From positions 231,943-295,942 of the forward strand of contig CAVRJJ010000005.1 of assembly GCA_963721685.1 (NCBI GenBank): a stretch of DNA of 64,000 bases, written 5' to 3'. The notes under the pieces are model-generated. The model did no database searches. It had not been told where the DNA came from and saw only the letters and a program-made list of their open reading frames with translations. Made by a program: the position numbers and the translations under genes. The stretch's first letter is position 1. Each line of letters starts with the position of its first letter. The DNA is from an uncultured bacterium. Lineage in GTDB: Bacteria > Patescibacteriota > Saccharimonadia > UBA4664 > SCTI01. Below are positions 26,923-54,916 of the stretch, piece after piece.

Positions 26923-26933
26923 TAAATTCCAAA

Positions 26934-27008
<75 letters not shown>

Positions 27009-27056
27009 ATACGGTAAGCATTGTACTTGGTTAGCTTCTTCTCGAAAAGCCTTGTA

Positions 27057-27632: not shown

Positions 27633-27637
27633 CCTGG

Positions 27638-28522
27638 TTACCAGCCGCGGGTGGCGAGTCGCTCTTCGTTGGGCAACGTGTCGAGGTTAATGCCAACCAT
27701 CGGCTCACCTAAATCTTCACTTACCTTGGCGAGCATCTTCGCGTCATTAAAGTGAGTGGTGGCAAGCACAATGGCCTTGGCGCGCTTGGCTGGGTTGCCG
27801 CTTTTGTAAATGCCGGAGCCAACAAATACACCGTCGACACCTAATTGCATCATTAAGGCGGCGTCGGCGGGGGTGGCAATACCGCCGGCGGCGAAGTTTA
27901 CTACCGGTAAGCGGCCAAGTTTAACGGTTTGGCCAGCCAGCTCTTCCGTCACCCGCTCAGTTTTAGCGAAGGCTTTGATGGCGGCTGATCCGGCTTTTTT
28001 CAGGATTGCCAGTTCATCGCTAACGGTCCGGGCATGGCGGACGGCTTCAACGATATTGCCGGTGCCGGCTTCCCCCTTTGTTCGGATCATGGCAGCGCCT
28101 TCCTGGATGCGCCGGAGGGCTTCGCCTAAATTACGGCAGCCGCACACAAAAGGCACGGTAAAGGGGTGCTTATCAATATGGTGGGTGTCGTCAGCCGGTG
28201 TCAGGACTTCGCTTTCATCAATGTAGTCCACGCCAAGCTCCTGGAGAATTTGGGCTTCTACAAAATGACCAATGCGCGCCTTTGCCATCACCGGGATCGT
28301 TACCGCCTTAATAATTTCTTTAATCATTTTGGGGTCGCTCATGCGCGCTACACCGCCATCGGCGCGGATATCGGCTGGAACGCGTTCAAGTGCCATCACA
28401 GCCGCCGCCCCAGCCTCTTCAGCAATGCGAGCCTGTTCGGGGGTGACCACATCCATAATAACGCCGCCTTTGAGCATTTGGGCGAGGCCGCTTTTTACGG
28501 CAAAGGTTCCGGTGTGTTTCAT
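27638..28522 (-). CDS. pdxS: pyridoxal 5'-phosphate synthase lyase subunit
   Basis: Near-canonical PdxS sequence, e.g. GGVIMDV and [18 protein letters not shown]. Confidence 0.9.
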
Positions 28523-28546
28523 TACATGTATCTCATAATAATTGCT

Positions 28547-28623
<77 letters not shown>

Positions 28624-39061: not shown

Positions 39062-39315
39062 TGGGTGAAGCGCCTGATCCTGGCGCTGAATGGGGCGGCA
39101 GAGACCCCGATAAGCCTCTCGCCTTTGAGACCACTATGGATAGAGCGCATCTAACGGAATGGGCTGCCAAGAACCCAGACTTGCCAGAGGATCCAGATGC
39201 GCGAGCTGCAAAGATAAAAGAAGATGTCGATTTGGTTATGGACCTAGGTTACACCTATGAGCAGTGGATGAAAATTATGAAGAAGCCAAAACAAGATGAA
39301 GAAGGAGAACACTAA
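39058..39315 (+). CDS. small acidic hypothetical protein inserted between grpE and dnaK
   Basis: 85 aa with overlapping start/stop codons. Its last codons supply the dnaK SD (GAAGGAG). Confidence 0.4.
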
Positions 39316-41263
39316 TGGGTAAAATTATCGGAATTGATTTAGGAACGACCAACTCGGCTATGGCCGTAATGGAAGGCGGCCAGCCAACTATTATAGCCAA
39401 TGCCGAAGGCGGCCGCACCACGCCGTCAATCGTGGCCATTAACAAACAAGGCGAGCGACTCGTCGGCCAGGCCGCAAAGCGCCAATCGGTGATTAACGGT
39501 GAAAACACCATTTTTGAAGTCAAGCGTTTAATTGGCCGCAAGTTCAAGGATAACGAGGTCCAAAAAGACGTAGGCTTGATGCCGTATAAAATTGTCGACG
39601 CCGACGGTTCAGTGAAGGTAAAGATGGGCGACAAGGACTATAGCCCGGAGGAGGTGTCAGCCATGATCCTTTCCAAGCTGAAGGCCGACGCCGAAGCCTT
39701 TATTGGCAGTCCGGTCACCGAAGCGGTTATTACGGTTCCCGCCTACTTTAGCGACGCCCAACGCCAGGCCACCAAAGACGCCGGAAAGATTGCCGGTCTT
39801 GAGGTTAAGCGAATTATTAATGAGCCAACCGCCGCCGCTTTGGCATACGGCTTAGATAAGAAAAAAGAAGAAAAGATTGTCGTCTACGACCTGGGAGGCG
39901 GTACCTTCGACGTATCTGTGCTTGAGCTTGGCGACGGTGTCTTCGAAGTCAAAAGCACCAACGGTGATACCCACTTGGGCGGCGCCGATTTTGATAACAC
40001 TATCATGAGCTTTTTGATTGATGAGTTTAAAGCCGATCAAGGCATTGACTTAAAAGACGACAAAGCCGCCGTCCAACGGCTGAAGGAAGCCGCCGAAAAA
40101 GCTAAGATTGAGCTCTCCAGCGCCCAAGACACGGAAATTAACCTGCCCTTCATTACCGCCGACGCGACTGGACCAAAGCACTTTACCTACCACCTTACCC
40201 GCTCCAAGCTGCAGCAGCTTGTCCAGGGTTTGATAGATAAGACGGCCGGCCCGTGTGAAGCCGCCCTGAAAGACGCCGGTTTGAAGGCGAGCGACATCAA
40301 CGAAGTAATTCTGGTTGGCGGCATGACCCGTATGCCAGCTGTTGCCGAAAAGGTCCAAGCCATCTTTGGCAAAGAGCCGCTCAAAGGCGTGAACCCGGAT
40401 GAGGTTGTGGCCGTTGGCGCGGCCGTCCAAGGCGGGGTGCTGGCCGGCGACGTGAAAGACGTCCTGCTCTTGATGTGACTCCCCTCTCACTGGGACTGGA
40501 AACCATGGGCGGCGTTATGACCAAGCTGATTGAGCGCAACACCACGGTGCCAACCAGCAAAAGCCAGGTGTTTTCCACGGCGGCCGATAACCAAAACCAG
40601 GTAGAGATTAACGTGCTTCAGGGCGAACGTGAGTTCGCGGTTGATAATAAAAGCCTGGGCCGGTTCATTCTGGATGGTATTCCCCCAGCTCCCCGCGGCG
40701 TCCCCCAAGTAGAGGTAACCTTCAACATTGATGCCAACGGTATTGTAAATGTTAAAGCCGTAGACAAGGGTACCAATAAGGAACAACACATCACCATTAC
40801 CGGCAGCGGCAACATGAGCGACGAAGACATTAAAAAAGCCCAGGCTGAAGCCGAAGCTCATGCCGAAGAAGATAAAAAGCGTAAAGCCGTGGTAGAAGCC
40901 CGCAACAATTTGGATAACACCATCTATACCGCCGAAAAGACCATGAAAGACGCTGGTGATAAGGCCAAAGAAGAAGACAAGACCGCTTTGCAGGCGGCCA
41001 TTGATGAGGCCAAAAAGCTGGGCGAAACCGATGACCCGGCAGTGCTGGAAAAAGCCACCCAGGAGCTTAGCGATAAGATGCAGGTAGTGGGCGCGGCTAT
41101 GTACGCCGCGGCCGCTGAAGCCGCCGGCGACACCACCGGTAGTGCCGAAGCCTCGGCCTCCGCTACCGCTAGTGCCGAAACCACCGTTGAAGAGCCGGTT
41201 GAAGGCGAGGTGGTTGACGAAAAGACCGAAGAGAAAAAAGACAAGAAACCTGACGAAAAATAA
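39315..41263 (+). pseudogene. dnaK: molecular chaperone DnaK, interrupted by a 1-nt deletion near 40476 (sequencing error possible)
   Basis: ORFs 39315-40478 and 40475-41263 together give a full DnaK. Observed ttgatgtgact; restoring ttggatgtgact gives [13 protein letters not shown]. Confidence 0.9.
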
Positions 41264-41282: not shown

Positions 41283-42402
41283 GTGCCAGTGGCAAAACGT
41301 GATTACTATGATGTATTAGGTGTAAGCAAGTCGGCCACGGCCGATGAGATTAAGCGCGCCTACCGCAAGCTGGCCATGCAGCACCATCCTGACAAGCATG
41401 GTGGTGACGATGGCCCCTTTAAAGAGCTTGGTGAAGCCTACGAAGTCCTGAAAGACCCTAAAAAAAAGGCGATTTACGACCAGTACGGGCACGCCGCCAA
41501 CGCCCAAAACCCCGGCAGCCAAGGTGGTAATCCCTTTGGCGGGGGCTTTAACGCCGAAGGCTTCGACTTCTCCCAATTTCAAGGAGCTGGAGGGGGATTT
41601 GGCGATATCTTTGATATGTTTTTCCAAGGCCAAGGCGGGGGAAGGCGGCGCCAAGCCGCCCGTGGTGCCGATATGGAAACCGTGGTTACTTTGGATTTTA
41701 AAGAAGCCATCTTTGGAGCCAGCCGCAAGCTTCAAATAACCACTGATGAGCGCTGTGACCATTGTTCGGGTAATGGTGCCGAACCCGGCACCAAAGTGAA
41801 AACTTGTGAAACCTGCAAGGGTCAAGGTCAAGTTACGCGAGTGCAACAGACCATCCTTGGCGCAATCCAACAGGCGACGGTATGCCCGACCTGCCGCGGT
41901 GAAGGCGAAGTTCCCGAACAAAAGTGCAATAAATGCCGGGGCTCGGGGACGATCAAGAAAACCAAAGAGCTGGAGGTAAAGATTCCCGCTGGCATTGATA
42001 ACGGCCAAACCATCCGTTTGGATGGCAAAGGCGCGGCCCATAAAAAAGCGCCCAACGGTGACTTATACATTCACGTACAAGTCCGGCCGGATGCGTAAGT
42101 TGCAGCGTCATGGCCAGGATATTAGTTCAACTATTAAGCTTGATATGGTAGGAGCGGCGCTGGGAAGCGAAGTGCCGGTCCACACGGTTGATGGCAATGT
42201 AAAACTGAAAGTTCCGGCCGGAACCCAAAGCGGCAAAACCTTCCGTTTAAGCGAGCGCGGTGTCCCGGGTATGGGTGGCCGCAAGCGCGGTGACCACTTG
42301 GTGACCGTAACGGTGGAAACCCCCAGCAAGCTTTCATCCAAGCAAAAAGAACTGTTAGAGCAATTCGCGAGCGAGGGCGGCAAAAAGCGCAAGTTCTGGT
42401 AG
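41283..42402 (+). pseudogene. dnaJ: co-chaperone DnaJ, interrupted by a +1 frameshift near 42093
   Basis: J domain with HPD, G/F region and four CxxCxGxG repeats, then the C-terminal domain in the next frame. An extra t creates TAA after VRPDA. Confidence 0.85.
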
Positions 42403-44113
42403 TTAATGCTGAGCTAGAAATACCTTAAATAGTCCGTCTTTTCCGGATAGCTCATCGTAGGTACCTTCTTGTATAACCCGGCCATTATCAAATACCAAAA
42501 TGCGGTCGGAGTTGCGCAGGGTACTCAGGCGGTGGGCGACGGTAATAATAGTTTTATCTTTAAATATATCTTCCAGGACTTTTTGAATGGCGGCTTCATT
42601 ACGGTTATCAAGGGCGCTGGTAGCTTCATCAAAAATCAAGATGTCTGGCGCCTGCAGAATAATGCGGGCAATTGCCAGGCGCTGTTTCTGCCCACCGCTT
42701 AGGTTGCCCCCTTGCTCGTGAACCTTGCCGTTTAGTCCGCCTAGCGAGCCTTCAATCTCCTCCCAAATATGGGCTTTTTCGCATGCTGCTTGGATCTCGG
42801 TAACGGTGTGATGCTTGTGCCCCGCTCCATAAGTAATATTTTCTTTAATGGTACCGCTAAATAAGTACGTTTTTTGGGGGATGTAGGCTATGGTTTGGGC
42901 TAGCGCTTGGCGGTTCAACGCGAGCAGGTCTTTGTCCAGGATATCAATCGAACCCTGGTAATTATGATTAAGCCGCAACAGCAACTTAATCAACGTGCTT
43001 TTTCCGCAGCCGGAAGCGCCGGCAATCCCAACCTTTTCGCCCACCGCAATATCCAGGTTTATTTGGTCTAATATTAAGCGCTCAGGACGTGAAGGGTAGT
43101 GGTACGAAAGGTTGGATATTTTGATAGCAACGTTGGTAGATCTGGACGTTTGCGGACTCTCGGCAGCGGCGTAGGCGGGGTCAATAGGCTGGCGTTGCAG
43201 AGCGTGTAAATCTTCAACCCGGATCGAGCTTTCATGAGCCTCGTCTAAGATACGATGAATTTGGCGAAGCGGGGCGGTAATACTTAAGAATAGGATTGAG
43301 TACACCAATATATCACCCTTGGTAATTACTCCTTGGCTGGCAAGGTAGATGGAAAGACAAATCACGAGCACGTAGAAAAATCCTTCATTAAGGTATTTGG
43401 CAGCGTCATAGAGCGCCATCTGAAAATGGTGCTTAATCTCACGCTTGCGCAAAGCTTCAGCGGAAGCTTCAATCCGGTCCAGTTCCACACCGGTGGTATC
43501 AAGGCTGCGGACGGTTTCAATCCCGCCTAACACCTCAACCACGGCCGCGTCGGTGGTTTCCTTGCCGCGTAGCAAGGCGATGCGGATACCCTTCTGGCTA
43601 GCGATTTGCTTAACAATAATATAAAGACCGGCGGGAATAACCAGCAGCATAACGGTAGCGATGAGCGGCTTATGCAGTAACGCGATACCAAGAGCGGCGA
43701 GCGCGCTAAAGGCGGCGGGCAGAAAATCGAGAAAGCTCAGCTTAATCAGGCGGATCAAGCCCCTCGATAGAACGAAAAATCCGTCCATGCAAGGCGCCTA
43801 CCCGAAAACCTTCCAGCTGATGAGTGTCGGTATGCAAGATGCGCCCAATAGTAGCGACGGTTTGCTTCTTTTCGGTTTGGGTCGCGATATTTTCCACCTG
43901 GTATTTGCGCAACACGGTTAATGCCTCACGAATGATAATAATGCCGACTATCAGCAGGATAAAACCGAATACTGAACTAAATTGGATTACATTATTAGCG
44001 GTTAATTGATCAACCAGCCGCCCCAAGATCACGGCTGGTAAGTTGGTGAGGATACCGGTAATGAGCATTACTACTCGATACCGCGGCCAAGACACGTTTT
44101 TCGGACCCGTCAA
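42403..44113 (-). pseudogene. ABC exporter (fused permease and ATPase, MsbA-like), frameshifted in an A5/T5 run near 43766-43770
   Basis: N-terminal TM segment ORF 43742-44113 plus 42403-43788 with Walker A, LSGGQKQR, Walker B and H-loop. Removing one T restores ...HGRIFVLSRGLIRL. Confidence 0.8.
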
Positions 44114-44210
44114 TCAAGCGAAAAGGTTTTGGCTGAGTCCGGCGCGGATTTCTTTAAATTCGGTGTTCATGATTGCTCTTCTGCTAAGTATATAGCTAAA
44201 TTAATTATGT

Positions 44211-45125
44211 CTAAAAGAAGTAAAGCAGGCCGATGCTTAGCGCGATTAGCACGCTGCCGATTAGTTTTTGCTTGAGGCGTTGCCGTTCATTTAAGAATAT
44301 GTAGCCGCCAATCAAGCTGAATACCATAGCACTTTGTTGTACCGGTGTGACCTTTGAGGCTTCGCCAGTAGCTAAAGCCGCGAAGAAGACCAACTCAAAA
44401 ACTGCAAAAATAGCACCGGCAACTAAGAGTTTTGTTGGCTTGGTCGGTAGTAATCGTTTGGGAATATCATTGCGTATAGCTAGTGTCAGAAACGCTAAAA
44501 CACTGCACCCGATAAAGCCAAACGACGCCAAAAAGGCAATCGAGACGTCATCCGCTAAAAGCTTAGTTAGAAGGAAAGCAAACCCAATGAACGCGGCGCT
44601 TTGAATCGCGTAGATAACATCTTTTGTAGGCTTAATGCCGGTTTTCCCAAGCGCCGCGATTGCCACTCCCACCACCAGCAACACGATGGCAATGACTTTA
44701 CTGCTAGTAACGCGCTCGCTAAAGAGAAAATAAGCGCCTGCCAATACAACGATATGGCGCAGCTGGGCAATAATCTGGAAAACTGACGCTTCAACCGTCC
44801 GGAGCGACAGAAAAGTAAAAAGGTCGACCAGGAAATAGGTGAATGTTGAGAGCAGCAGTAGGCTCCAGTTTTCAAGGTTTGACGGTGGGTTGAAGTAATA
44901 CAGTGCAACGGGTAACAAAAGAATTCCAGCAATGCCATTATGGACTGCCATGAAGGCTACGGGATTTCCACCGCGCGTAAGAGTTGAACGTATGAGGAGG
45001 CGGTTTATCGCAAATAAAAGGCCGGCCAGAAGTGCAAGAGTGAACCACATGATAGTTAAGATCCTACCTAATATGTAGCCAAAAGCGAAATGGTTGTACA
45101 ATGTAGTTATGGTTATATCGGCCAT
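44211..45125 (-). CDS. EamA/DMT-family transporter
   Basis: About 10 TM helices with a two-EamA-repeat pattern. Confidence 0.55.
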   Translation of the reverse strand: MADITITTLYNHFAFGYILGRILTIMWFTLALLAGLLFAINRLLIRSTLTRGGNPVAFMAVHNGIAGILLLPVALYYFNPPSNLENWSLLLLSTFTYFLVDLFTFLSLRTVEASVFQIIAQLRHIVVLAGAYFLFSERVTSSKVIAIVLLVVGVAIAALGKTGIKPTKDVIYAIQSAAFIGFAFLLTKLLADDVSIAFLASFGFIGCSVLAFLTLAIRNDIPKRLLPTKPTKLLVAGAIFAVFELVFFAALATGEASKVTPVQQSAMVFSLIGGYIFLNERQRLKQKLIGSVLIALSIGLLYFF

Positions 45126-45688: not shown

Positions 45689-45765
45689 GGGCCCATAGCT
45701 CAGTTGGTTAGAGCGAGAGCCTTTTAAGCTCTGCGTCCTGGGTTCGAATCCCAGTGGGCCCTCCA
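45689..45765 (+). tRNA. tRNA-Lys (UUU)
   Basis: GGGCCCA acceptor. Anticodon stem AGAGC/GCUCU with loop CUUUUAA. T-arm GGUUCGAAUCC. CCA encoded. Confidence 0.85.
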
Positions 45766-45854
45766 TTAAGAATAAAATCAGCAAAAGTCGTCTCATTTTG
45801 GGACGATTTTTTAAAATGACCTAGTATACTACCATAAGAGATTAACTTTAAATT

Positions 45855-46445
45855 ATGACGAAAATACCAGTATCTATCAGTCAGCTTGCAAAATATGGAC
45901 TCGACTACGTCAGTCTGATTTCTAGTAGTGGCTCAAGAAGTAGGCCAGTAAAGACTGACAAGATGGATGCTGAGTTATTGTCAGTGCCTGACTTAGTTTT
46001 CAAAAATGAAGTTGAAGCCATCACGATCGAACTAATTACGTCCCTAGACAGTGAATATGATCCGGATACTCCCGATGAGGATAAAAGCGACGAGCAGCGA
46101 CGAGCAGAAGAACGTGTCACGCGTGACCGCGAAATCTTAAATAAAATTCAAGAAATTGATACCAAAATAAAAACTGATGAGTACACAAAAAGAGTTGTAT
46201 TACAGAGTGGATTTGTATCTTTCGAAGCCAAGCGTTTCCTTGAAGCTGAATACAACGAAGAATATGAAAAATATGAAGGTCCATTATTACAAGTTCCCGT
46301 GGCGGCCATTAACTTCAAGTACAGCGCCGTCGGAGTCAGCGTAGTTATTGACCTGCCTGACAGCTACGTTGAGATATTGAGTGGCCCGTTTAAAAATTAC
46401 TTGCCACAGCAATACTATGACGAGATATTTACTTCCACCCTCTAA
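45855..46445 (+). CDS. hypothetical acidic protein (island gene 1)
   Basis: 196 aa, no SD, no motifs. Confidence 0.4.
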   Translation: MTKIPVSISQLAKYGLDYVSLISSSGSRSRPVKTDKMDAELLSVPDLVFKNEVEAITIELITSLDSEYDPDTPDEDKSDEQRRAEERVTRDREILNKIQEIDTKIKTDEYTKRVVLQSGFVSFEAKRFLEAEYNEEYEKYEGPLLQVPVAAINFKYSAVGVSVVIDLPDSYVEILSGPFKNYLPQQYYDEIFTSTL

Positions 46446-46593
46446 CGCAGAATCTGACCCTTCGTACGATGGCGTAATAGCAGCTACTCGATTCACAGGT
46501 AGTGGTGTTTGAGGATGAGGAAAAGCGTGAATAAGCGGTAATTCTGAGGCCAGGGGTTCGCGAACCGTTTCAGAAAAACTAAAGGAACTCGAC

Positions 46594-49359
46594 GTGCCTT
46601 TCTTGTATGGCTACATACCAGACAAAACCTCGAAACTCTACACTGAAGCCGATGAGAAAGACAGTGCCGCGAATACTCTACTTGCATTGAACCGAGAATT
46701 TCAAAAAGGCAAAGTCGGCGACCTAAAAGAGCCTCTCGAATTGCTAACAGACCGTTTCAATATCTTCACCGATAATCTAGATAATGAGCGCTCAATATAT
46801 TCCCTTTATGAGGAGCGTAGGAGTATAGGCTACATTGAGCTTTTTTATGCGTATGGGGTGGATATCGCATGGTATGACCAGCTAGTGAACCTAGAGCAAT
46901 CAATTAGTGAAGCAGAATCTAAGGTTAATGAATTCGAAAAGAGTCGCGGTAAATTTATTAAAGCCGCTGATTCTAAGTTTAAAGATCTAGAGATAGATTA
47001 TCAGGCCACCATAGATGCTATTGAAGAAATCAACACCTATTTCAAGGCAAACATGCCCGAAAGGTCTGGCTGGATAGGCAGTAAATTAAATGACACTAAG
47101 CTGCGCAATGCGCTAAAGAAATCCTGCCGCAACATACTTCAAGAGATCTACGTAGAAATTGAGAAAATTCTTTTCTCGGATAACACTAAGTCTGCCCGCT
47201 TACAGCTACTTGATAGGGTTGAAGAATACTTTAGCTATTCTAGTGAACTGGAAATGCTGGCACAAAGCCGCTCGGCGCTACAAGAGCTTCTAGGGAGTAA
47301 GGGAATGCCGTCGACGACTTATGTAAATCTGAAAAAAGTCATCGATGAGCATGGCAAAGACAAAGTATTTAAAGATTTAACTAAATACGATGAAATATCC
47401 GATCAGATAAACGAGGTGGCATTATACTCAGCAAATGAGCTGAACCGTGAGATAAAAGATATTCGGAAGTTCTACAGAACTAATACTACAAATTATGTGC
47501 GAAATCGCATCCTAACAAGAATAGGCGAAATAAATAACAGCAAAGACATAAAAGCCACATTAGCTCAGGTTGCCAGAAGCCTCACCAAGAGTAAGAAAGC
47601 AAATAAGACATTTGATAGGCTAAAACATAACGAAGACAACTTTAGCGCAATGTCCAAGGTACTCCCTATTTGGATGATGAGCCTAGATGATGTTAGTCGT
47701 ATTGTGCCGCTACAAATGAACGCATTTGATTATGTAATTATCGATGAGGCGTCACAGTGTAACTTTGCATACGCTTTCCCTGCTATGTTCCGAGCCGAAC
47801 ATACTATTTTCTTCGGCGACACTTTGCAGATGCGGGATGACAACATTATGTTTAAGTCAAATGACCAGCTAAGTGCTATAGCCAAGAAACACAAAATACC
47901 TGATGTGTACCAAATCAAAGCCGAGGAAGATACTGTTAAGTCGGTAATGGATATCGCGCACTTAAATGGCTTCAAAACTACTACTCTCAAATACCATTAC
48001 CGTTCGCCTAAAGAACTTATTGGCTTTTCTAACGAGTCATTCTACGAGCCCATCGGACGTAAGCTGGAAGCCGTCAACGATAATATAGTGCCATTCAAAA
48101 ATACTGGACGCGTCATGATGAATCACTTAGTTAAGCCGAATGACTCAGAAGAAACATCGGATAAAACTAACTTAGCCGAGGTGCAGAAAATTCAGCAGCT
48201 AGTTGATGAGATTAGAGAAGACCCTATATTGAAGGACAAGTCGATTGCTATTCTGACGTTCTTTAATGAACAGGCCGAGCTAATACGAAATACGATTACG
48301 GATGAAGATATCAAGGTAGCAATCATCGACGGCATTCAAGGCGACGAGAAAGACATTGTTATTTATTCCTTTGTGATCAAAGACCCTAGCGATAAGAGGC
48401 GTTACATAAACCGAACTGGCGAAGGCGGTGAAATCAATAAAGACATTGCAGCGGGTCGAGTGAACGTAGCGTTTAGTCGTGCAAAGCTACAAGTTCATTG
48501 TGTAACGTCAATATCGCCAGAACTATGGCCTACGGGCATCTGGATTAAGAAGTATCTGGAATATGTCGAGAAGTATGGAGTTGTATCGCGTCGGCACATT
48601 AAATCTGAGCAACAATTTGATTCTGAATTCGAAAACCACGTTTATACTTACCTTGCCAAGAAGTTAGATGCAAATGATTATACGATTGAAACACAAACTG
48701 AATCACTAGGCTTTAAGATTGACATGACAGTACATCACAGTGGGAGAAAACTCGCCATCGAATGTGATGGTCCGACTCACTTTGAGGGTGGGGACGGTCA
48801 AGTATACGTTCAAAGCGACTGGGAGCGTCAGGGCGCATTAGAGGTTGCTGGTTGGAATTTCTATCGTATTTCGTATTTCGACTGGGTTAACGATCGGTCA
48901 GGAGAAGAAAAAGCTCTGACCGACTTTATAGCGGAATACTTTGACAATGACCACAAGATTGGCAAGACTAATGTTGTTAGAGTGCTAGAGAAAGAAACTG
49001 TAGCTCCTGTAGATGCTCCAGCAGAAATGTACGTCACCGATTTCTCCGATGAGCAGGTAGACAACATAAATGCCGTGCAAGGAACCTCTAAGCCAAAAGT
49101 CGATAAGCCTAAGACCCCAGCTAATAAAGGATTTAGCGTTGGTTCGCGTGAAGTAAACCAAGACGCATTTGGCGAATACTTGCAAGGCCGCATCTCAAAA
49201 TCGATCAACATTCGATATCAATCTACTAGGGCTGGCAGTGCAAAGTTCTGGCGTACGTTATCTCTCGTTGAGTTTGATGGTACGTATTTTTCAGCGTTTG
49301 ACTCGTACGCGGGCATGAACAAGAAGTTTCGTCGAGACCGAGTTGTAGAATTTAAGTAA
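46594..49359 (+). CDS. Upf1/DNA2-like SF1 helicase core lacking Walker A, fused to a DUF559/Vsr-like PD-(D/E)xK endonuclease domain
   Basis: GTG start with AAAGGA SD. Motif II DYVIIDEASQ, III FGDTLQM, IV YRSPKEL, V IDGIQGDEKDIVIYSFV, VI RVNVAFSRAK, then AIECDGPTHF...D. No GxxxxGK[ST] anywhere in the 921 aa. The N-terminal 330 aa is coiled-coil-like. Confidence 0.7.
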   Translation: MPFLYGYIPDKTSKLYTEADEKDSAANTLLALNREFQKGKVGDLKEPLELLTDRFNIFTDNLDNERSIYSLYEERRSIGYIELFYAYGVDIAWYDQLVNLEQSISEAESKVNEFEKSRGKFIKAADSKFKDLEIDYQATIDAIEEINTYFKANMPERSGWIGSKLNDTKLRNALKKSCRNILQEIYVEIEKILFSDNTKSARLQLLDRVEEYFSYSSELEMLAQSRSALQELLGSKGMPSTTYVNLKKVIDEHGKDKVFKDLTKYDEISDQINEVALYSANELNREIKDIRKFYRTNTTNYVRNRILTRIGEINNSKDIKATLAQVARSLTKSKKANKTFDRLKHNEDNFSAMSKVLPIWMMSLDDVSRIVPLQMNAFDYVIIDEASQCNFAYAFPAMFRAEHTIFFGDTLQMRDDNIMFKSNDQLSAIAKKHKIPDVYQIKAEEDTVKSVMDIAHLNGFKTTTLKYHYRSPKELIGFSNESFYEPIGRKLEAVNDNIVPFKNTGRVMMNHLVKPNDSEETSDKTNLAEVQKIQQLVDEIREDPILKDKSIAILTFFNEQAELIRNTITDEDIKVAIIDGIQGDEKDIVIYSFVIKDPSDKRRYINRTGEGGEINKDIAAGRVNVAFSRAKLQVHCVTSISPELWPTGIWIKKYLEYVEKYGVVSRRHIKSEQQFDSEFENHVYTYLAKKLDANDYTIETQTESLGFKIDMTVHHSGRKLAIECDGPTHFEGGDGQVYVQSDWERQGALEVAGWNFYRISYFDWVNDRSGEEKALTDFIAEYFDNDHKIGKTNVVRVLEKETVAPVDAPAEMYVTDFSDEQVDNINAVQGTSKPKVDKPKTPANKGFSVGSREVNQDAFGEYLQGRISKSINIRYQSTRAGSAKFWRTLSLVEFDGTYFSAFDSYAGMNKKFRRDRVVEFK

Positions 49360-49360
49360 A

Positions 49361-50173
49361 TTGATGAAGGCGTTCGACAAACATAGTGACCCAAATCTGA
49401 TAAAACGAGCCTTGGATGCTGGACTATCCTCAACGCCCGGCCTCTCCATTCCCTGGGCATTATGCAAAGCTCTGTATGGTAATGCTTTAGAGTTACGGCA
49501 GCAAAGAGCGCTTGAGTGGGTTGAAATGATTCGCGACAACCCTGTTATTTTTCGCAAAGAATTATTAGAATCTTCAGATTTTCAGGACGGTTTTATAGTA
49601 GCGCTGGAAGAATACTTAAAACTTAGGACGATTTTAAAGCGTGGCTTGGCTCGCAAAATTTTTATTGGCTTTGCCCAAGTTGGAGACAAAGAACAATTTG
49701 AACTCGAACGTTACAATACAACGCTGAGCCAAATATCAGGCAATTCTTTGAAATTCTTAGCGTACATAAAAGAACTAGTCGAACCAAAACGACAAGAGCG
49801 CGTTGCCGAAACTATGGGTAACATCGATTTCAAGACGTCACCTATGCAATCAGACCAGGCCAAAAGCTACATCGAAAAACAAAACCCGCTCTCGTTCGCG
49901 TATAAGGATATTCATGTGGGTTCGGGGACGCAAATTATGCTTCCCAATAAGCCGAGTCCTAGATACCCAGGTATCACAAGCTCTATGGGCATAACCATTC
50001 AAGATAGCGATCGTACAACTCACGAAGAATGTCTTACTGAACTCGTAAGCCTCGGCTTACTCAGCCGTAGCCGATACACTACGCCTGTATCCGATAAGAA
50101 CCCAACAACTGTTTATCATGACATTTGGGACTACACGAACTATGGCAAAGGCTTTGTCGAGTTCATGAAATAA
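49361..50173 (+). CDS. hypothetical protein (island gene 3)
   Basis: 270 aa. Start is 2 nt after the helicase stop. Confidence 0.4.
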   Translation: MMKAFDKHSDPNLIKRALDAGLSSTPGLSIPWALCKALYGNALELRQQRALEWVEMIRDNPVIFRKELLESSDFQDGFIVALEEYLKLRTILKRGLARKIFIGFAQVGDKEQFELERYNTTLSQISGNSLKFLAYIKELVEPKRQERVAETMGNIDFKTSPMQSDQAKSYIEKQNPLSFAYKDIHVGSGTQIMLPNKPSPRYPGITSSMGITIQDSDRTTHEECLTELVSLGLLSRSRYTTPVSDKNPTTVYHDIWDYTNYGKGFVEFMK

Positions 50174-50436
50174 ATAACAGGGCGTACTGTCTCAAAGGAC
50201 AGCGGTACATATTGTTGAATTTCTGCCATGCCTCTACTATATATACATACATTACAGGGAATTAACCGCATAACGCCCATCCCTTTTACTCACCTGATAC
50301 TGCCCAAACCTGTCATCCAGTAAGCCTTTCCAACGGATCGACTCATCAATTAGGGTTATAAACTTATCTGACGGGGGCCCTCCAAATTGATACCTACACA
50401 AGTACTTAGTCTAGTTGCCCATGTTATTATTTCTTC

Positions 50437-51177
50437 ATGGCTTATAAAAGCGGTAATCCCGCTCTCAATAAAGATACGTTCGCTGATTTGCAGCCCACTC
50501 TAAGCGGGGTGACGATGAGCCTTGACGGTGTGGCCGCCAAGTCATTACTGCTTTTTGTATTGTGCATGGGCAGCGGTTTGTTCGGCTGGAGGTTGGCCGC
50601 CGCGCAACATGAAATGCTGGGCATATTGGTAATAGGTGCCCTTATAGCGGCCTTTATTATCGCTATTATCACCATATTCAAGAAAACTTTCTCACCGGTA
50701 ACGGCGCCGCTTTACGTCATTTTAGAAGGGTTCGCGGTCGGGGCTATCTCCCAAATATATGAAGTAGAGTTTGCCGGCATTGTGCTGCAGGCGCTGTTGC
50801 TAACGGGCGGCATATTTGTAAGCATGCTGCTCTTATATTTATTTCGAATTATTAAACCAACTAAAAATTTTATGCTTGGAGTTACCGCGGCTACCGGCGG
50901 GATTGCGTTGTATTATGTCGCGAGTATCGTAATCGGTTTCTTTGGCAAAGAGTTACCGCTAATCCACAGCAACTCCCCGTGGGGGATTGGCTTTACAGTA
51001 TTTGTCATCATTATCGCGGCGTTAAACTTAGTAGTGGATTTTGATTTTATCGAGCAGGGTGTGCGGAAAAAAGCGCCGAAATACATGGAGTGGTATGCCA
51101 GCTTTGGCCTCTTTGTAACGCTGATTTGGCTTTACCTTGAGCTTTTACGATTGCTTGCAAAACTTAGGAGCCGGTAG
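50437..51177 (+). CDS. Bax inhibitor-1/YccA-family membrane protein
   Basis: Seven-TM topology at 246 aa. Located upstream of ftsH-unrelated genes. Confidence 0.45.
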   Translation: MAYKSGNPALNKDTFADLQPTLSGVTMSLDGVAAKSLLLFVLCMGSGLFGWRLAAAQHEMLGILVIGALIAAFIIAIITIFKKTFSPVTAPLYVILEGFAVGAISQIYEVEFAGIVLQALLLTGGIFVSMLLLYLFRIIKPTKNFMLGVTAATGGIALYYVASIVIGFFGKELPLIHSNSPWGIGFTVFVIIIAALNLVVDFDFIEQGVRKKAPKYMEWYASFGLFVTLIWLYLELLRLLAKLRSR

Positions 51178-51179
51178 CC

Positions 51180-51998
51180 GTGCAGCCTAAAACGGTGTTA
51201 ATTACCGGATCATCGAGCGGCATTGGTAAAGCCGTGGTGGAGGCGTTTGCCGCTGCCGGCTGGAATGTAGCGGCGACATCCAGAAAAGCCGATAAGCAGC
51301 TATTTGAAAAATGGCACAATGTTAAGGCTTATCCTCTAGATGTTACAAATAATAAAAGTATAGAAGACGCGTTTACCGCGGTTGGGAAGGACTTTAAAAC
51401 CGTTGATGTGGTGGTTAACAATGCCGGCTATGGTTTGGATGGGGTTTTTGAAGCGATGGATGATGAACAAATCCAGCGCCAGTTTGAAACGAACGTTTTT
51501 GGGCTGATGAGCGTTACACGCGAAGCGATCAAGATAATGCGTCCGGGTGGCAGCGGGACTATTATTCAAATCGCCTCGATGGGCGGTCGCTTAGCGTTCC
51601 CCCTTTACAGCGTCTACCATGCCAGTAAATGGGCGGTGGAAGGATTTTCGGAATCTCTGCAATACGAGGTCGGCCTCTTTGGTATTCGCGTGAAAATTAT
51701 TGAACCGGGCGTTATTAAAACCGACTTTTATGGACGCAGCCGTAGTTTAGTGACGCCGCCATCGAAGCTGGGGTATGACGGCTTTGTGGCGAAAGTAGAG
51801 AAAGTTTCCCAGGATTCCGGAGCCAAGGGCCAGCCATCGGAGTTGGTGGCCGCGACCATACTCAAGGCGGCAGAGGATACCAGCCGAAAATTACGTTACG
51901 TAGTAGGCGCGCCCGCGCCGCTTTTGCTGGGCTTGCGCAAGCTATTGCCTGAGCGGATTTTTTATTGGATCGTGCGCAAGAGCTACCGGATAGGGTAA
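51180..51998 (+). CDS. SDR-family oxidoreductase
   Basis: TGSSSGIGKA Rossmann motif and YHASK (YxxxK). Confidence 0.8.
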   Translation: MQPKTVLITGSSSGIGKAVVEAFAAAGWNVAATSRKADKQLFEKWHNVKAYPLDVTNNKSIEDAFTAVGKDFKTVDVVVNNAGYGLDGVFEAMDDEQIQRQFETNVFGLMSVTREAIKIMRPGGSGTIIQIASMGGRLAFPLYSVYHASKWAVEGFSESLQYEVGLFGIRVKIIEPGVIKTDFYGRSRSLVTPPSKLGYDGFVAKVEKVSQDSGAKGQPSELVAATILKAAEDTSRKLRYVVGAPAPLLLGLRKLLPERIFYWIVRKSYRIG

Positions 51999-52041
51999 AG
52001 GCAGCCAGCAATAAAGGAACTCCTTTTGCTATACTGGGCGC

Positions 52042-52767
52042 ATGACTTCGGCAATCCAAATCTCTAAATTGTCGGTTACCCTTGGGAAAAACTTTCAAGC
52101 GCTAAGGGGTATAACCGTTGAGCTGCCCAAAGGTAAAATTATTGGATTCATAGGACCCTCGGGCGCGGGAAAGACAACGCTCATGCGCTGTATTGTCGGC
52201 CGCCAGCGCGTTGGCAGCGGGAGCGTCACAATTTTTGGCATACCCGCTGGTTCGCCTCAATTGCGGCCGCAAATCAGCTATATGACCCAGGAAGTGTCGG
52301 TCTACAGCGACCTGACGGTTAAAGAAAATATCGTCTATTTCGCGACAATCTTTGGAATTTCAAGCAAAGACGTCGAGTCGCAGGTCAATCGCATACTTGA
52401 GACGGTCGACATGAAGCCGCAGGCAAACCAGCTGGTGGAAAAACTGTCCGGCGGGCAGAAGCAGCGGGTATCGCTGGCTATCGCGTTAATCGGCTCGCCT
52501 AAATTAATGGTGTTAGACGAACCAACGGTCGGGTTGGACCCGGTGCTCCGGGAACAGCTGTGGGACCTGTTTCGAACTCTGGCCGGCAAGGGGACTACGC
52601 TCATTATTTCCAGCCACGTTATGGACGAGGCCGAGCGCTGCGACGATTTACTATTGATCCGTGACGGCGAGCTTTTGGCGCATGGGTCACCTTCCGAGCT
52701 ATGCCGGCAAACCAACACGAAATCGGTAGAACAAAGCTTTCTGGCCTTAGTAGGGGAGAAGTTGTGA
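52042..52767 (+). CDS. ABC transporter ATP-binding protein
   Basis: GPSGAGKTT, LSGGQKQRVSLA, LDEPTVGLD. Confidence 0.85.
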   Translation: MTSAIQISKLSVTLGKNFQALRGITVELPKGKIIGFIGPSGAGKTTLMRCIVGRQRVGSGSVTIFGIPAGSPQLRPQISYMTQEVSVYSDLTVKENIVYFATIFGISSKDVESQVNRILETVDMKPQANQLVEKLSGGQKQRVSLAIALIGSPKLMVLDEPTVGLDPVLREQLWDLFRTLAGKGTTLIISSHVMDEAERCDDLLLIRDGELLAHGSPSELCRQTNTKSVEQSFLALVGEKL

Positions 52768-53498
52768 GTCCGCGTAAAACTTTTGCCACAGCGCGCCGGG
52801 TTTTAGCCCAGTTAAAACATGACCACAGGACAGTCGCGATGGTGCTGCTGATACCGGCACTCCTGATTACCTTGCTGAAATACGTCTTTCATAATGAGCC
52901 GCAGATCTTTAGCGGACTAGCTCCGATCATTTTGGGTGTGTTCCCTTTGATGATGATGTTCTTAATTACTTCCATCGCTACCTTACGTGAGCGTAAATCA
53001 GGTACGTTGGACCGCTTAATGACCCAGCCAATGTCAAAACTCGACTTTATCTTTGGGTACGCCATTGCCTTTTCACTGGTTGGGCTGGTTCAGGCTAGTA
53101 TTGCTAGCTTTGTAACGTTGGAATTACTTGGCGTGGAAGTGGCGGGAGGGGCAATCCCACTTTTAATCACCGCGATATTGGCAGCCTTCCTGGGAACCAC
53201 ACTTGGATTATTTGTAAGCGCGTTTGCGCGCAATGAGTTTCAGGCGGTTCAGCTGGTTATGCCTATCATGATGCCCCAAGTTTTGTTGTGCGGACTCTTC
53301 ACCCCGCGGGATCAAATGGCCGGACTTTTGCACTGGCTTTCCGGCGTTTTCCCGCTTACCTACAGCGTTGACGCGATGCGCCAGGTGGCTCTTCATCCTG
53401 AATGGACCGCAACACTTACCCGTGATCTTCTGATTGTGCTTGGTTTTGGGGTGGCAGCCTTGGTGCTTGGCGCAATCACTATCCGCCGACAAGAGTAG
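52764..53498 (+). CDS. ABC-2 family permease
   Basis: Six TM helices. GTG start overlaps the ATPase stop. Confidence 0.65.
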   Translation: MSPRKTFATARRVLAQLKHDHRTVAMVLLIPALLITLLKYVFHNEPQIFSGLAPIILGVFPLMMMFLITSIATLRERKSGTLDRLMTQPMSKLDFIFGYAIAFSLVGLVQASIASFVTLELLGVEVAGGAIPLLITAILAAFLGTTLGLFVSAFARNEFQAVQLVMPIMMPQVLLCGLFTPRDQMAGLLHWLSGVFPLTYSVDAMRQVALHPEWTATLTRDLLIVLGFGVAALVLGAITIRRQE

Positions 53499-53500
53499 GC

Positions 53501-54916
53501 ATGTCCAAACGCATCTACGTTATTATTAATCCCTCCTCTGGTACCGGCGATCCGGCCAATGTAGTGCCTGGGATTGAAGCCCAATTAAAGCAGCGGTCAC
53601 TTGAATACACGATAAAAATTGCCCAGACTCCCAGCCAAGCCAAAGCGGCCGCGAGTAAAGTGGCTTTAGCAAAATATGACGCGATAGCGGTTTACGGCGG
53701 CGATGGTACGGTTATCGCGATTTTTAAAGCTGTTTACCAAGCAAAGATCCCCGTGCTTATTTTACCGGGCGGATCGGCTAATGTTTTGGCAAAAGCCCTG
53801 AATCTTCCGCCTGATGTCGGCAAGTGTCTTGATCTTTTTGTGGAGGACTTGTATCTTCTGCGGCGGTTTGGGGTGGCCTTAGCAAACGATGAGCCTTTTA
53901 TCCTTGACCTGCATTTTGGGGTGTGGGCCGAAAGTATCCAATCGACCAGCTCCCGCTTAAAGCAGGCGTTTGGCCAGCTAGCTTACGGCTTGGCCGCTAT
54001 AAAGCAGTTAGGGTCGGCGGCTAAGTATGCCTACCAACTACAATTAGATGGTAAAAAGCTGAAGGTCGACGCTTACGCCTGTATAGTCGCCAACGAAGGA
54101 TTCCATAATATTTTAGGAGTACCGCTTTTCCCGTACCCCCATACGCCGGGGTTCTTGCAGGTGGCGGCGGTTAAGCGCGTCAACCAATTTGTATTTTTAC
54201 GCTGGTTCATTTTGCGTTGCCTGGGCCGTCAAGACTCTGGGGTGGTTGAGGCGTGGCGGGTTAAAGAAGCGGTAATTGAGGACGCGCCACAACAAATGTT
54301 GTTTGATGATGAGGCGCTAAACGCCAAACTGCCGTTTACTATCCAAGCCTCGAATTACACCATAGCCGCCATCGCGGCGCCGTTAACTGCCAGCTCATTT
54401 TGGCGCCGATTGCGGCTGCAGGCAGCGGTTGAGCCTTACCGCATTTATGACCACTTGCGCCGCGTAGTTACGGGAGGGCCCGCGCTTAAAAGCACACAGA
54501 TCGCCCTCAATTTATATGTTGGTGGCCAATACCGCCCGTGGGCGGTAGGCAGGCTGCGCAAGTGGGGGATTACCGGGGTGGTAAATATGCGCAATCTGCG
54601 CCACCCTTCCTATTCCCGGGGCCTTGAAGTATTAAATTTACCAACCCGGGACCATCATCCCCCTAGCCTTGAGGCACTGCACAAAGGAGTGGTATTTATT
54701 CAGCAACACATCCAAAATGGTGGAGCGGTGTATGTGCACTGCCAGCTTGGCGAAGGCCGGGGGCCCATTATGGCAGCGGCGTATCTGGTAAGCCAGGGTA
54801 TGCGTCCGCGCGACGCGGTGGCGCACATTGAACGTTTCCGCCGATTGGTACGCCCAAATGCTAAGCAACTGCATCAGTTGGCCCGGTTTGAGGAAGAGTT
54901 AAAGGAAATGCCATGA
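53501..54916 (+). CDS. fusion protein: DAGK-like lipid kinase catalytic domain plus dual-specificity (CX5R) phosphatase domain
   Basis: N-terminal IINPSSGTG...YGGDGT. C-terminal VHCQLGEGRGP (HCx5R P-loop). Confidence 0.65.
   Translation: MSKRIYVIINPSSGTGDPANVVPGIEAQLKQRSLEYTIKIAQTPSQAKAAASKVALAKYDAIAVYGGDGTVIAIFKAVYQAKIPVLILPGGSANVLAKALNLPPDVGKCLDLFVEDLYLLRRFGVALANDEPFILDLHFGVWAESIQSTSSRLKQAFGQLAYGLAAIKQLGSAAKYAYQLQLDGKKLKVDAYACIVANEGFHNILGVPLFPYPHTPGFLQVAAVKRVNQFVFLRWFILRCLGRQDSGVVEAWRVKEAVIEDAPQQMLFDDEALNAKLPFTIQASNYTIAAIAAPLTASSFWRRLRLQAAVEPYRIYDHLRRVVTGGPALKSTQIALNLYVGGQYRPWAVGRLRKWGITGVVNMRNLRHPSYSRGLEVLNLPTRDHHPPSLEALHKGVVFIQQHIQNGGAVYVHCQLGEGRGPIMAAAYLVSQGMRPRDAVAHIERFRRLVRPNAKQLHQLARFEEELKEMP

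What the first reader, a model, noticed from the sequence alone, without database searches (positions are those of the whole stretch)
45756..50384. tRNA-Lys-integrated AT-rich island carrying a Walker-A-less SF1 helicase/DUF559 nuclease fusion: candidate undescribed defence module
A 4.6-kb segment of about 40% GC begins at the 3' end of tRNA-Lys and ends at a second copy of the last 10 nt of the tRNA (GGGCCCTCCA, 50375-50384), the signature of site-specific integration. Its central 921-aa protein has SF1 helicase motifs II, III, IV, V and VI in Upf1/DNA2-like order and a C-terminal AIECDGPTHF DUF559/Vsr-type endonuclease fold. It has no Walker A/P-loop anywhere; the N-terminal 330 aa are instead coiled-coil-like, so it cannot bind ATP in the canonical way. 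It is flanked by a 196-aa acidic protein and a 270-aa protein, neither with recognisable motifs. A helicase-nuclease fusion between unknown partners on a tRNA island is typical of phage-defence systems, but I do not recognise this combination.
Basis: partly seen in the sequence, partly recalled or inferred. Interest (0 to 1): 0.8.

Follow-up and report, generated by a model that had tools for sequence, protein, structure and literature searches.

The report
Broken copy of helicase-nuclease gene
The "ATP-site-less helicase with two unknown partners" is one ordinary 1288-residue helicase-nuclease gene broken in this assembly by a local lesion that removed its ATP-binding loop; an intact, otherwise identical copy exists elsewhere, so it is not a new kind of defence system.

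Summary
The raw features are real: tRNA-Lys(UUU) at 45689-45765, a second GGGCCCTCCA at 50375-50384, a 42% GC block in a 51% GC window, three ORFs, and no P-loop in any frame.

The 196-aa "acidic partner" is residues 1-193 of the helicase itself, and the 921-aa ORF is residues 368-1288. About 500 nt, encoding residues 194-360 with the Walker A loop (GPPGTGKS), are replaced by 138 nt of garbled sequence. An independent assembly holds an intact 1288-aa allele that is 100% identical on both sides, followed by the same 269-aa gene.

More than 100 full-length relatives of about 1289 aa, mostly Saccharibacteria, keep the Walker A nearly invariant. The window also has frameshifted dnaK and dnaJ, so the lesion may be an assembly error rather than a real deletion.

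The 270-aa gene is absent from 75 other helicase loci. Its relatives sit beside unrelated defence genes (a PD-Lambda-4_A-like protein, Pycsar).

The intact protein belongs to an uncharacterised family of SF1 helicases fused to a Vsr-like nuclease. It shares only its core with PDC-S37, ProA and Hhe. It often lies just downstream of tRNA genes or near serine recombinases.

Verdict: an ordinary defence-like cargo gene, broken here. Low interest.

The parts
45689..45765 (+). tRNA-Lys (anticodon UUU) with encoded CCA; left edge of the variable segment
   Evidence: ARAGORN and Rfam tRNA at 70.8 bits. It is 100% identical to the tRNA-Lys of the related MAG locus L164. Similarity to L164 stops exactly after the CCA.
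45756..45765 (+). First copy of the 10-nt repeat GGGCCCTCCA (last 10 nt of the tRNA)
   Evidence: Its significance is weak.
45855..46433 (+). Helicase-nuclease gene, fragment A: codons 1-193 (the '196-aa acidic protein'). The reading frame then runs into 3 junk codons and a stop at 46443-46445.
46435..46572 (.). Lesion: 138 nt replacing about 500 nt that encode residues 194-360, including the Walker A loop. Net loss is 362 nt, which shifts the frame.
   Evidence: The same breakpoints appear against 11 homologous loci. GC is 0.507. Read in the ORF2 frame it shows colinear relics of the missing residues, including G*GKA*ISGN against GTGKSQTISN (P=0.002; DNA level P=0.03).
46573..49359 (+). Helicase-nuclease gene, fragment B: codons 361-1288. 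It is called as a 921-aa ORF from GTG at 46594. It contains the coiled-coil insertion, motif II DEASQ (47743-47757), AAA_12/RecA2 (47956-48507), the MTES_1575 Vsr-like nuclease (48628-48930) and a conserved C-terminal tail.
   Evidence: 920/921 residues identical to P0220 residues 368-1288; the only difference is the start codon. 87% identical to P0002. Family matches: Pfam, PADLOC, NCBIfam. Motifs. The closest solved structure by sequence is IGHMBP2, 4b3f.
49364..50173 (+). ORF3, 269 aa: helical N-terminal domain plus C-terminal winged helix; function unknown. It belongs to a gene family of Saccharibacteria/Patescibacteria mobile or defence islands and is not a dedicated helicase partner.
50375..50384 (+). 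Second copy of GGGCCCTCCA, 201 nt after the ORF3 stop and 52 nt before the next gene, where GC rises again. Possible but unproven right boundary.
50437..53498 (+). Four genes of normal GC (BaxI_1 membrane protein, SDR, ABC ATPase, ABC permease). They are also absent between tRNA-Lys and the DAGK/PTP gene in the related MAG, so the lineage-specific stretch is 7.7 kb (45766-53500), not only 4.6 kb.
   Evidence: Synteny with L164. Pfam BaxI_1. GC 0.50.

Best explanation
ORF1 and ORF2 are the two halves of one gene. It encodes a 1288-residue protein made of an N-terminal domain of unknown fold, an Upf1/IGHMBP2-like SF1 helicase with a long coiled-coil insertion, an MTES_1575 (Vsr/DUF559-like) nuclease and a conserved C-terminal tail.

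In this assembly about 500 nt in the middle of the gene, coding for residues 194-360 and the Walker A loop GPPGTGKS, are replaced by 138 nt of scrambled sequence. That shifts the frame and produces a 196-aa ORF and a 921-aa ORF with no P-loop. The P-loop-less helicase is therefore a lesion and not a design.

The lesion is either a very recent strain-specific inactivating deletion or rearrangement, or a local consensus or assembly error. I rate these two as about equally likely; the tools here cannot separate them.

Inferred, not shown: the intact protein is a single-polypeptide, ATP-dependent helicase-nuclease. It most likely acts against foreign DNA by loading on it, translocating with its SF1 motor and cutting with the Vsr-like domain, as is assumed for the related candidate defence proteins PDC-S37, ProA and Hhe.

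The gene is cargo in a variable slot directly downstream of tRNA-Lys. It lies next to ORF3, a winged-helix protein that elsewhere accompanies other defence cargo. In the state recorded in this window the gene cannot make a working motor.
For: Shown:
- ORF1 equals residues 1-193 and ORF2 equals residues 368-1288 of full-length relatives.
- P0220, from an independent Logan assembly of run ERR12037361, is 100% identical over both parts and carries the missing 174 residues with VEGPPGTGKSQT.
- On that contig the gene is followed 4 nt later by a 269-aa gene, as in the window. The contig length of 5090 equals the window span 45736-50463 plus the 362 missing nt.
- The same DNA breakpoints, 46434/46435 and 46572/46573, appear against 11 loci.
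- In full-length relatives Pfam places the P-loop at residues 312-366. GPPGTGKSQT, DEASQ and the nuclease E-x-D-G-P-x-H positions are 90% or more conserved in 45 relatives.
- More than 100 relatives of about 1289 aa were found.
- The filler keeps in-frame relics of the lost segment, with stop codons inside the former P-loop.
- Assembly quality: dnaK is split by a 1-nt deletion and dnaJ is also split.
- Defence-like family links: PDC-S37 at 1e-52 to 5e-72, ProA at 1e-46 to 6e-67, Hhe at 2e-26 to 4e-38, and MkoA/MkoC.
- Mobile context: a same-strand tRNA lies within 1.5 kb upstream in 12 of 56 loci, with 9 different anticodons. Large serine recombinases are nearby in at least 5 loci, and a small XRE-type HTH gene lies within 3 kb in about 10.
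- The helicase segment is absent from this site in the related MAG L164.
Against: - No reads are available, so a real deletion cannot be told from an artefact.
- ORF2 has no other defect and has an AGGA 9 nt before its GTG, so a truncated protein could in principle be made.
- The defence role of the intact family is inferred from partial profile matches, all far below the NCBIfam cutoffs (226 against 1500 bits; 137 against 2000 bits), and from context. No member has been tested.
- The family is unusually well conserved across Saccharibacteria genera (61-87% identity), which could also fit a housekeeping role.
Confidence: 0.9

Rival explanations
1. One reading: a naturally Walker-A-less helicase-nuclease that works with a 196-aa acidic protein and a 270-aa protein as a new three-gene defence module.
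For: No P-loop occurs in any frame of the segment. ORF2 is otherwise intact, with conserved motifs II-VI and a nuclease domain. A Shine-Dalgarno-like AGGA precedes its GTG.
Against: ORF1 is the helicase N-terminus. An intact allele with 100% identical flanks exists. Every one of more than 100 relatives is a single protein of about 1289 aa with a conserved P-loop. The three ORFs lie in three different frames, joined by a scrambled relic. ORF3 is absent from 75 other helicase loci.
Confidence: 0.02
2. The lesion is purely an assembly or consensus artefact, and the organism carries the intact 1288-aa gene.
For: dnaK and dnaJ, which are essential genes, are frameshifted in the same window, so the assembly contains indel errors. 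The flanks are identical at protein level to an intact allele from another assembly. The filler looks like a garbled, shortened version of the true sequence and has a deviant GC of 0.507 against 0.418.
Against: The net loss of 362 nt is far larger than the 1-nt indels seen in dnaK. The 3.3 kb of helicase coding sequence outside the lesion has no error at all against P0220. No reads could be examined.
Confidence: 0.45
3. The gene is not a defence gene but a conserved DNA repair or replication helicase-nuclease of Saccharibacteria. Its loss here would be tolerated gene decay in a reduced genome.
For: The protein is highly conserved across genera: 74% identity to Ca. Saccharimonas aalborgensis L336_0164, 69% to Nanosynbacter, and a nearly constant length. 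There is no obligate partner gene. It is not found in phages.
Against: Neighbourhoods are variable, with homology ending within 10-40 bp of the ORF. The gene lies next to tRNA genes of 9 different anticodons and to serine recombinases. Its GC is 9 points below the host. It is absent from the syntenic site in L164. Its best profile matches are to candidate or named anti-phage proteins.
Confidence: 0.1
4. The helicase-nuclease gene is itself a small mobile cassette, or is moved as a single-gene cassette, that targets the 3' flank of tRNA genes. The 10-nt repeat would be its footprint.
For: 12 of 56 loci have a same-strand tRNA just upstream, against roughly 3% expected from tRNA density. In L095 the gene alone is flanked by a 145-bp direct repeat of about 83% identity that starts in the last 6 nt of tRNA-Gly. 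L157 has a 35-nt flanking repeat. Homology between loci stops at the ORF ends.
Against: Only 2 of 12 tRNA-adjacent loci show flanking repeats above noise, and the window does not. Many loci have no tRNA. Serine recombinases are present in some loci and could do the moving. The window unit includes ORF3. Extra tRNA 3'-end copies in L091, L092, L139 and L152 lie between the tRNA and the helicase, which points to general integration hotspots.
Confidence: 0.06

Closest known systems
PADLOC candidate single-gene system PDC-S37 (profile PDLC05009, 1550 positions)
   Same: This is the best-scoring defence profile: 9.8e-53 for ORF2 and 5e-72 for the intact relative P0002. The aligned region runs from the helicase insertion through RecA2 into the nuclease (profile positions 647-1359).
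   Different: Only about half of the profile is covered. The N-terminal roughly 650 profile positions and the C-terminal end are not matched. The Saccharibacteria protein is about 260 residues shorter and has its own N-terminal domain. No paper on PDC-S37 was found in the library.
NCBIfam NF058533 'anti-phage protein ProA' (1903 positions)
   Same: Shares the helicase-nuclease core. P0002 matches profile positions 1033-1734 at E 6.5e-67.
   Different: The score is 159-227 bits against a curated cutoff of 1500, so it is not an equivalog. The first roughly 1000 positions of ProA have no counterpart here. No literature on ProA could be retrieved.
Hhe (NCBIfam NF042953, 'DUF4011 domain-containing anti-phage protein Hhe'; PADLOC PDLC02194)
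   Same: A single large protein with an SF1 helicase followed by a Vsr-like nuclease. The RecA2 and nuclease part aligns at E 2e-26 to 4e-40. Hhe is also reported as exchangeable cargo of mobile elements (PMC11551731).
   Different: Only the C-terminal roughly 250 residues align. The score is 92-137 bits against a cutoff of 2000. Pfam detects no DUF4011 and no DUF3320 in the Saccharibacteria protein.
Upf1-like SF1B helicases (IGHMBP2/SMUBP-2, PDB 4b3f; TIGR00376)
   Same: Closest solved structure by sequence (E 1.6e-12 over motif II to motif VI). Pfam AAA_11 and AAA_12 match. The motif order is the same, and an insertion interrupts the first RecA domain.
   Different: IGHMBP2 has no nuclease domain, no 300-residue N-terminal domain and a much shorter insertion. 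It is a eukaryotic RNA/DNA helicase.
MTES_1575-type Vsr REase fusions (Anantharaman et al. 2013, PMC3710099)
   Same: The nuclease domain matches Pfam PF18741 above its cutoff (65 against 38 bits). That domain was defined in a protein that fuses it to an SF1 helicase.
   Different: MTES_1575 itself also carries HEPN, transglutaminase and two wHTH (DUF3320) domains. None of these is detected here.

Membership tests
SF1 (Upf1-like) helicase, active ATPase | Walker A / motif I (GxxxxGK[ST]) | tested here: not met
   No P-loop in any of the six frames of 45766-50384. The intact allele P0220 and 45 relatives have GPPGTGKSQT. The window copy lost it through the lesion at 46435-46572.
SF1 (Upf1-like) helicase, active ATPase | Motifs II-VI in SF1 order, two RecA domains | tested here: met
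   DEASQ, GDTLQ, IQGDEKD and VAFSRAK are present. Pfam AAA_11 (partial) and AAA_12 at 7e-23. IGHMBP2 is the best PDB match.
MTES_1575 / Vsr-like REase domain (PF18741) | Profile match above the Pfam gathering score | tested here: met
   65.3 bits against a cutoff of 38.2, ORF2 residues 679-779. The E-x-D-G-P-x-H positions are 90% or more conserved in relatives. Catalysis was not tested.
Hhe anti-phage protein (NF042953) | Full-length equivalog score of at least 2000 bits, with a DUF4011 N-terminus | tested here: not met
   92 bits for ORF2 and 131-137 bits for intact relatives, covering only the C-terminal part. No DUF4011 hit in Pfam at E up to 0.1.
ProA anti-phage protein (NF058533) | Full-length equivalog score of at least 1500 bits | tested here: not met
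   159-227 bits, profile positions about 1033-1781 of 1903 only.
PADLOC PDC-S37 | Match to the single-gene profile over its full length | tested here: inconclusive
   E 5e-72, but only profile positions about 647-1371 of 1550 are aligned. PADLOC gives no cutoff in this tool.
tRNA-integrated genomic island | tRNA gene at one boundary | tested here: met
   tRNA-Lys ends at 45765. Identity with the related locus L164 stops exactly there.
tRNA-integrated genomic island | Direct repeat of the tRNA 3' end at the other boundary (attL/attR), beyond chance | tested here: inconclusive
   The repeat is 10 nt only. Between 3% and 22% of shuffled sequences reach 10 nt, and the flank alignment has z = -0.2. 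Its position fits the GC change.
tRNA-integrated genomic island | Integrase or recombinase inside the element | tested here: not met
   The segment is filled by the helicase fragments and ORF3. No recombinase family was found among them.
tRNA-integrated genomic island | Absence from the same site in a related genome (empty site) | tested here: inconclusive
   L164 has tRNA-Lys followed 16 bp later by the DAGK/PTP gene, but the difference from the window is 7.7 kb (45766-53500), not 4.6 kb. A JGI contig has yet another gene after the tRNA-sized gap. No closely related strain was available.
Multi-gene defence system (three-gene module) | Conserved co-occurrence of the component genes in other genomes | tested here: not met
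   ORF1 is part of the helicase. ORF3 is absent from 75 helicase loci and co-occurs only on the near-identical Logan contig. No conserved neighbour was found across loci apart from a small HTH gene in a divergent subgroup.
Pseudogene / disrupted gene | Collinear match to an intact orthologue interrupted by a deletion, frameshift or stop | tested here: met
   The net loss is 362 nt and the three ORFs lie in three frames.

The most novel reading that the evidence does not exclude
The roughly 1289-aa helicase-nuclease gene of Saccharibacteria is a self-contained mobile cassette. It would either home by its own nuclease and helicase, or be captured by a trans-acting recombinase, into the 3' flank of tRNA genes. 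That would explain why it sits directly downstream of tRNAs with at least nine different anticodons, and why in L095 it is flanked on its own by a 145-bp repeat that starts inside the tRNA 3' end.
Probability: 0.06. Interest if true: 0.65.

Novelty: new member of a known kind. Interest (0 to 1): 0.18.

Why it matters
As written, the finding would have been a helicase that works without an ATP site inside a new three-gene immune system. That is not what is there.

What remains is smaller:
- Public annotation carries this broken gene as two separate proteins, which should be flagged.
- Saccharibacteria, which mostly lack CRISPR, widely carry a well-conserved single-protein helicase-nuclease that has never been tested. 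It is related only in its core to candidate anti-phage proteins.
- The gene and the ORF3 family mark variable defence or mobile-element slots next to tRNA genes in these reduced genomes.

Tried and rejected
- **Empty-site test through the downstream BaxI_1 gene** (genome-contig scan). The relatives found (L005-L008) show no synteny and no tRNA.
- **Exact-protein look-ups** of the window's flanking genes and of P0001 returned nothing.
- **The two most useful contigs** (P0220 and P0223) have no DNA on hand, so the intact DNA sequence and a possible third site state could not be read.
- **Origin of the 138-nt filler.** BLAST against the window and all loci gave nothing, and a single local protein alignment was not significant (P=0.14). 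Only a colinear chain alignment was significant (P=0.002).
- **Rfam scan of the island** found only the tRNA.
- **Promoter and terminator scan** gave counts at the chance level.
- **Literature.** Nothing retrievable on ProA or PDC-S37, and only listings for Hhe.
- **Phage origin.** No relative in IMG/VR, and only two remote hits in the phage records.
- **ORF3 as a PD-Lambda-4_B-type partner.** No PADLOC hit for ORF3.
- **A general flanking direct repeat around the helicase gene.** Found only in L095 and L157 out of 12 loci.
Full report
**1. The observation**

ARAGORN and Rfam place tRNA-Lys(UUU) at 45689-45765 on the + strand. The decamer GGGCCCTCCA, the last 10 nt of the tRNA including CCA, occurs only twice in the window, at 45756-45765 and 50375-50384.

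The segment between the two copies has 42.1% GC, against 50.6% for the window and 50.2% for the next 3 kb.

It holds three + strand ORFs in three different frames:
- 45855-46445 (196 aa)
- 46594-49359 (921 aa, GTG start)
- 49361/49364-50173 (270/269 aa)

The 921-aa ORF has SF1 motifs II-VI (DEASQ, GDTLQ, IQGDEKD, VAFSRAK). It matches Pfam AAA_11 and AAA_12, and the MTES_1575 Vsr-type REase domain above its cutoff. No Walker A pattern exists in any of the six frames of the segment. So the sequence-level description is accurate.

The repeat is weaker evidence than it looks. Between 3% and 22% of Markov-shuffled downstream sequences give a match of at least 10 nt to the tRNA 3' region, depending on the search space. 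A local alignment of the two flanks is at noise level.

**2. What the ORFs are**

A search with the 921-aa ORF returned more than 100 close relatives, nearly all 1285-1295 aa. They have precomputed P-loop families (AAA_30, AAA_19). The named sources are Candidatus Saccharibacteria: Ca. Saccharimonas aalborgensis L336_0164, RAAC3_TM7 and Nanosynbacter.

Pairwise comparison with the closest relative that has DNA available (P0002, 1288 aa) shows:
- The 196-aa ORF is residues 1-193 of that protein (89% identity).
- The 921-aa ORF is residues 368-1288 (87% identity, no gaps).

The stretch between them contains VEGPPGTGKSQT. Pfam places the P-loop families at residues 312-366 of full-length relatives.

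At DNA level, window 45811-46434 and 46573-49364 align to L001, and the same breakpoints recur against ten other loci. About 500 nt of every relative are replaced in the window by 138 nt (46435-46572). The net loss is 362 nt, which explains the frame change.

**3. The decisive control**

The 90%-identity cluster of the 921-aa protein also contains the 196-aa protein and a 1288-aa member, P0220, from an independent Logan assembly of run ERR12037361.

P0220 is identical to ORF1 over 193/193 residues. It is identical to ORF2 over 920/921 residues, the only difference being the start codon read as M instead of V. It carries the missing 174 residues with an ordinary Walker A.

On its 5090-bp contig the gene is followed 4 nt later by a 269-aa gene, as in the window. 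The exact ORF3 protein is also recorded from Logan. The contig length equals window 45736-50463 plus the 362 missing nt.

In an alignment of 45 relatives, GPPGTGKSQT, DEASQ and the nuclease residues are 90% or more conserved. The P-loop-less helicase is therefore a lesion in one copy of a canonical gene.

**4. Nature of the lesion**

- The 138-nt filler has no BLAST match in the window or in any fetched locus. Its GC is 50.7%.
- Read in the frame of ORF2 it gives PPSNAESDPSYDGVIAATRFTGSGV*G*GKA*ISGNSEARGSRTVS.
- A colinear alignment that allows long gaps against the missing residues scores 53, compared with 35.3 +/- 5.2 in 1000 shuffles (P=0.002). It picks up relics of APSFDDSIIAITNKT and of GTGKSQTISN with stop codons inside.
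- A single local alignment was not significant. The DNA-level test against the 88%-identical L001 gave P=0.03.

So the filler is probably a shortened, scrambled remnant of the lost segment, flanked by error-free sequence.

The same window has dnaK split by a single missing G (CTCTTGATGTGACT where DnaK requires CTCTTGGATGTGACT, giving two ORFs at 39315-40478 and 40475-41263). dnaJ is also split. The assembly therefore contains indel errors, and a local consensus artefact is a serious possibility. A real, very recent deletion or rearrangement in one strain is equally possible. Only the reads can decide.

**5. ORF3**

The 269-aa protein has about 100 relatives in Saccharibacteria and other Patescibacteria. 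None has a Pfam, NCBIfam or PADLOC match. The family shares a conserved helical N-terminal domain and a short conserved C-terminus.

None of 75 other helicase loci contains an ORF3 relative. ORF3 relatives instead lie in these contexts:
- 10 nt downstream of an unrelated 1277-aa protein that matches PADLOC PD-Lambda-4_A.
- Next to a Pycsar pair (PycTM and PycC) and a serine recombinase.
- After a SEC-C protein, in an element with a DnaG-type primase, AAA_25 and DUF5659.
- In a plain chromosomal context.

ORF3 is thus a gene of variable defence or mobile-element slots. It is not a dedicated partner of the helicase.

**6. The helicase family and its context**

The intact protein consists of:
- an Upf1/IGHMBP2-like SF1 core (closest solved structure 4b3f) with a coiled-coil insertion of about 330 residues between the Walker A region and motif II;
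- the MTES_1575 nuclease;
- a conserved C-terminal tail.

The best defence profiles are PDC-S37, ProA and Hhe, then MkoA/MkoC. All matches are partial and far below the NCBIfam cutoffs, so it is a separate family sharing the helicase-nuclease core.

Homology between loci ends within 10-40 bp of the ORF. In 12 of 56 loci with upstream sequence, a same-strand tRNA gene ends within 1.5 kb of the start, with nine different anticodons. Several loci have extra copies of the tRNA 3' end between tRNA and helicase. At least five loci have a large serine recombinase nearby, and about ten have a small XRE-type HTH gene within 3 kb, directly upstream in seven of them.

In L095 the gene alone is flanked by a 145-bp, roughly 83% identical direct repeat that starts in the last 6 nt of tRNA-Gly. 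Only L095 and L157 of the 12 tRNA-adjacent loci show such repeats.

The gene is not found in IMG/VR, and the phage records give only two remote hits. All this fits exchangeable cargo in integration hotspots.

**7. The island in the window**

A related Saccharimonadia MAG (L164) keeps the order hrcA-grpE-dnaK-dnaJ ... 177-aa gene ... tRNA-Lys, and its tRNA is 100% identical. There the tRNA is followed 16 bp later by a DAGK/PTP gene, whose homologue lies at 53501-54907 in the window.

The lineage-specific stretch is therefore 7.7 kb (45766-53500). It has two parts: the low-GC helicase and ORF3 part, and four genes of normal GC (BaxI_1, SDR, ABC ATPase, ABC permease).

A third relative has yet another gene after the tRNA-sized gap. 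The slot is variable. The right boundary at 50384 is plausible from composition but unproven, and there is no recombinase in the segment.

**8. Mechanism**

Shown:
- One gene, with the P-loop lost in this copy.
- All other catalytic motifs intact.
- Family-wide conservation of the ATPase and nuclease motifs.

Inferred:
- The intact protein is an ATP-driven translocase-nuclease acting on foreign DNA, by analogy with the related candidate anti-phage proteins and from its context.
- The copy as recorded here cannot hydrolyse ATP and is at best an inert or deregulated fragment.

**9. Verdict**

The headline interpretation is wrong. The feature is a disrupted or misassembled member of an uncharacterised but conventional helicase-nuclease family. 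Interest is low.

The only non-trivial residue is the recurrent position next to tRNA genes and the single-gene direct-repeat structure in L095. These leave a small chance that the gene moves as its own cassette.

Noticed in passing
window 39315-41263 and 41283-42402: dnaK is split into two ORFs by one missing G at about 40472 (CTCTTGATGTGACT instead of CTCTTGGATGTGACT). dnaJ is also split into two overlapping ORFs. Frameshifts in essential chaperone genes point to indel errors in the source assembly.
   Followed up: partly
L095 2646-2789 and 6775-6918: A 145-bp imperfect direct repeat (about 83% identical, with a 14-nt identical core GCACCAAGATGACA) begins in the last 6 nt of tRNA-Gly and flanks the helicase-nuclease gene alone. 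This suggests a single-gene insertion or duplication at a tRNA 3' flank.
   Followed up: partly
L091/L092 (1238-1260 / 962-984), L139 5671-5692, L152 4815-4831: Extra 17-23-nt copies of the tRNA 3' end lie between the tRNA and the helicase gene. They look like scars of repeated integration at these tRNA genes.
   Followed up: no
L088 5039-6233 (also L089, L090): A Pycsar pair (PycTM and the PycC cyclase; PADLOC E 1e-29 and 5e-70) lies beside an ORF3 relative and a large serine recombinase, on contigs carrying an ORF3 relative that is 69% identical to the window's ORF3.
   Followed up: no
L085 1719-5552: A 1277-aa protein with no Pfam hit matches PADLOC PD-Lambda-4_A (9e-24). It is followed 10 nt later by an ORF3 relative, so ORF3 may be the fixed neighbour of a swappable cargo position.
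   Followed up: partly
window 4001-6000 (ORF 4554-6344): A second low-GC block (39.8% GC) holds a 596-aa ORF of unknown function, possibly another acquired gene.
   Followed up: no
window 24345-28623: Three tRNA-Met (CAT) genes lie on the - strand within 4.3 kb.
   Followed up: no
window 42403-45125 versus L164 4980-5594: Between dnaJ and the 183-aa membrane gene, the window carries an ABC-type 461-aa gene and an EamA transporter, where the related MAG has a single 204-aa gene. This is a second variable spot, just upstream of tRNA-Lys.
   Followed up: no
L118, L120, L122, L123, L134, L136, L137 (directly upstream of the helicase gene): In the more divergent helicase subgroup (35-38% identity), a small HTH gene of about 70 aa abuts the helicase start. 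It is related to the HTH_31/HTH_3 gene of L001 and is likely a local regulator.
   Followed up: no
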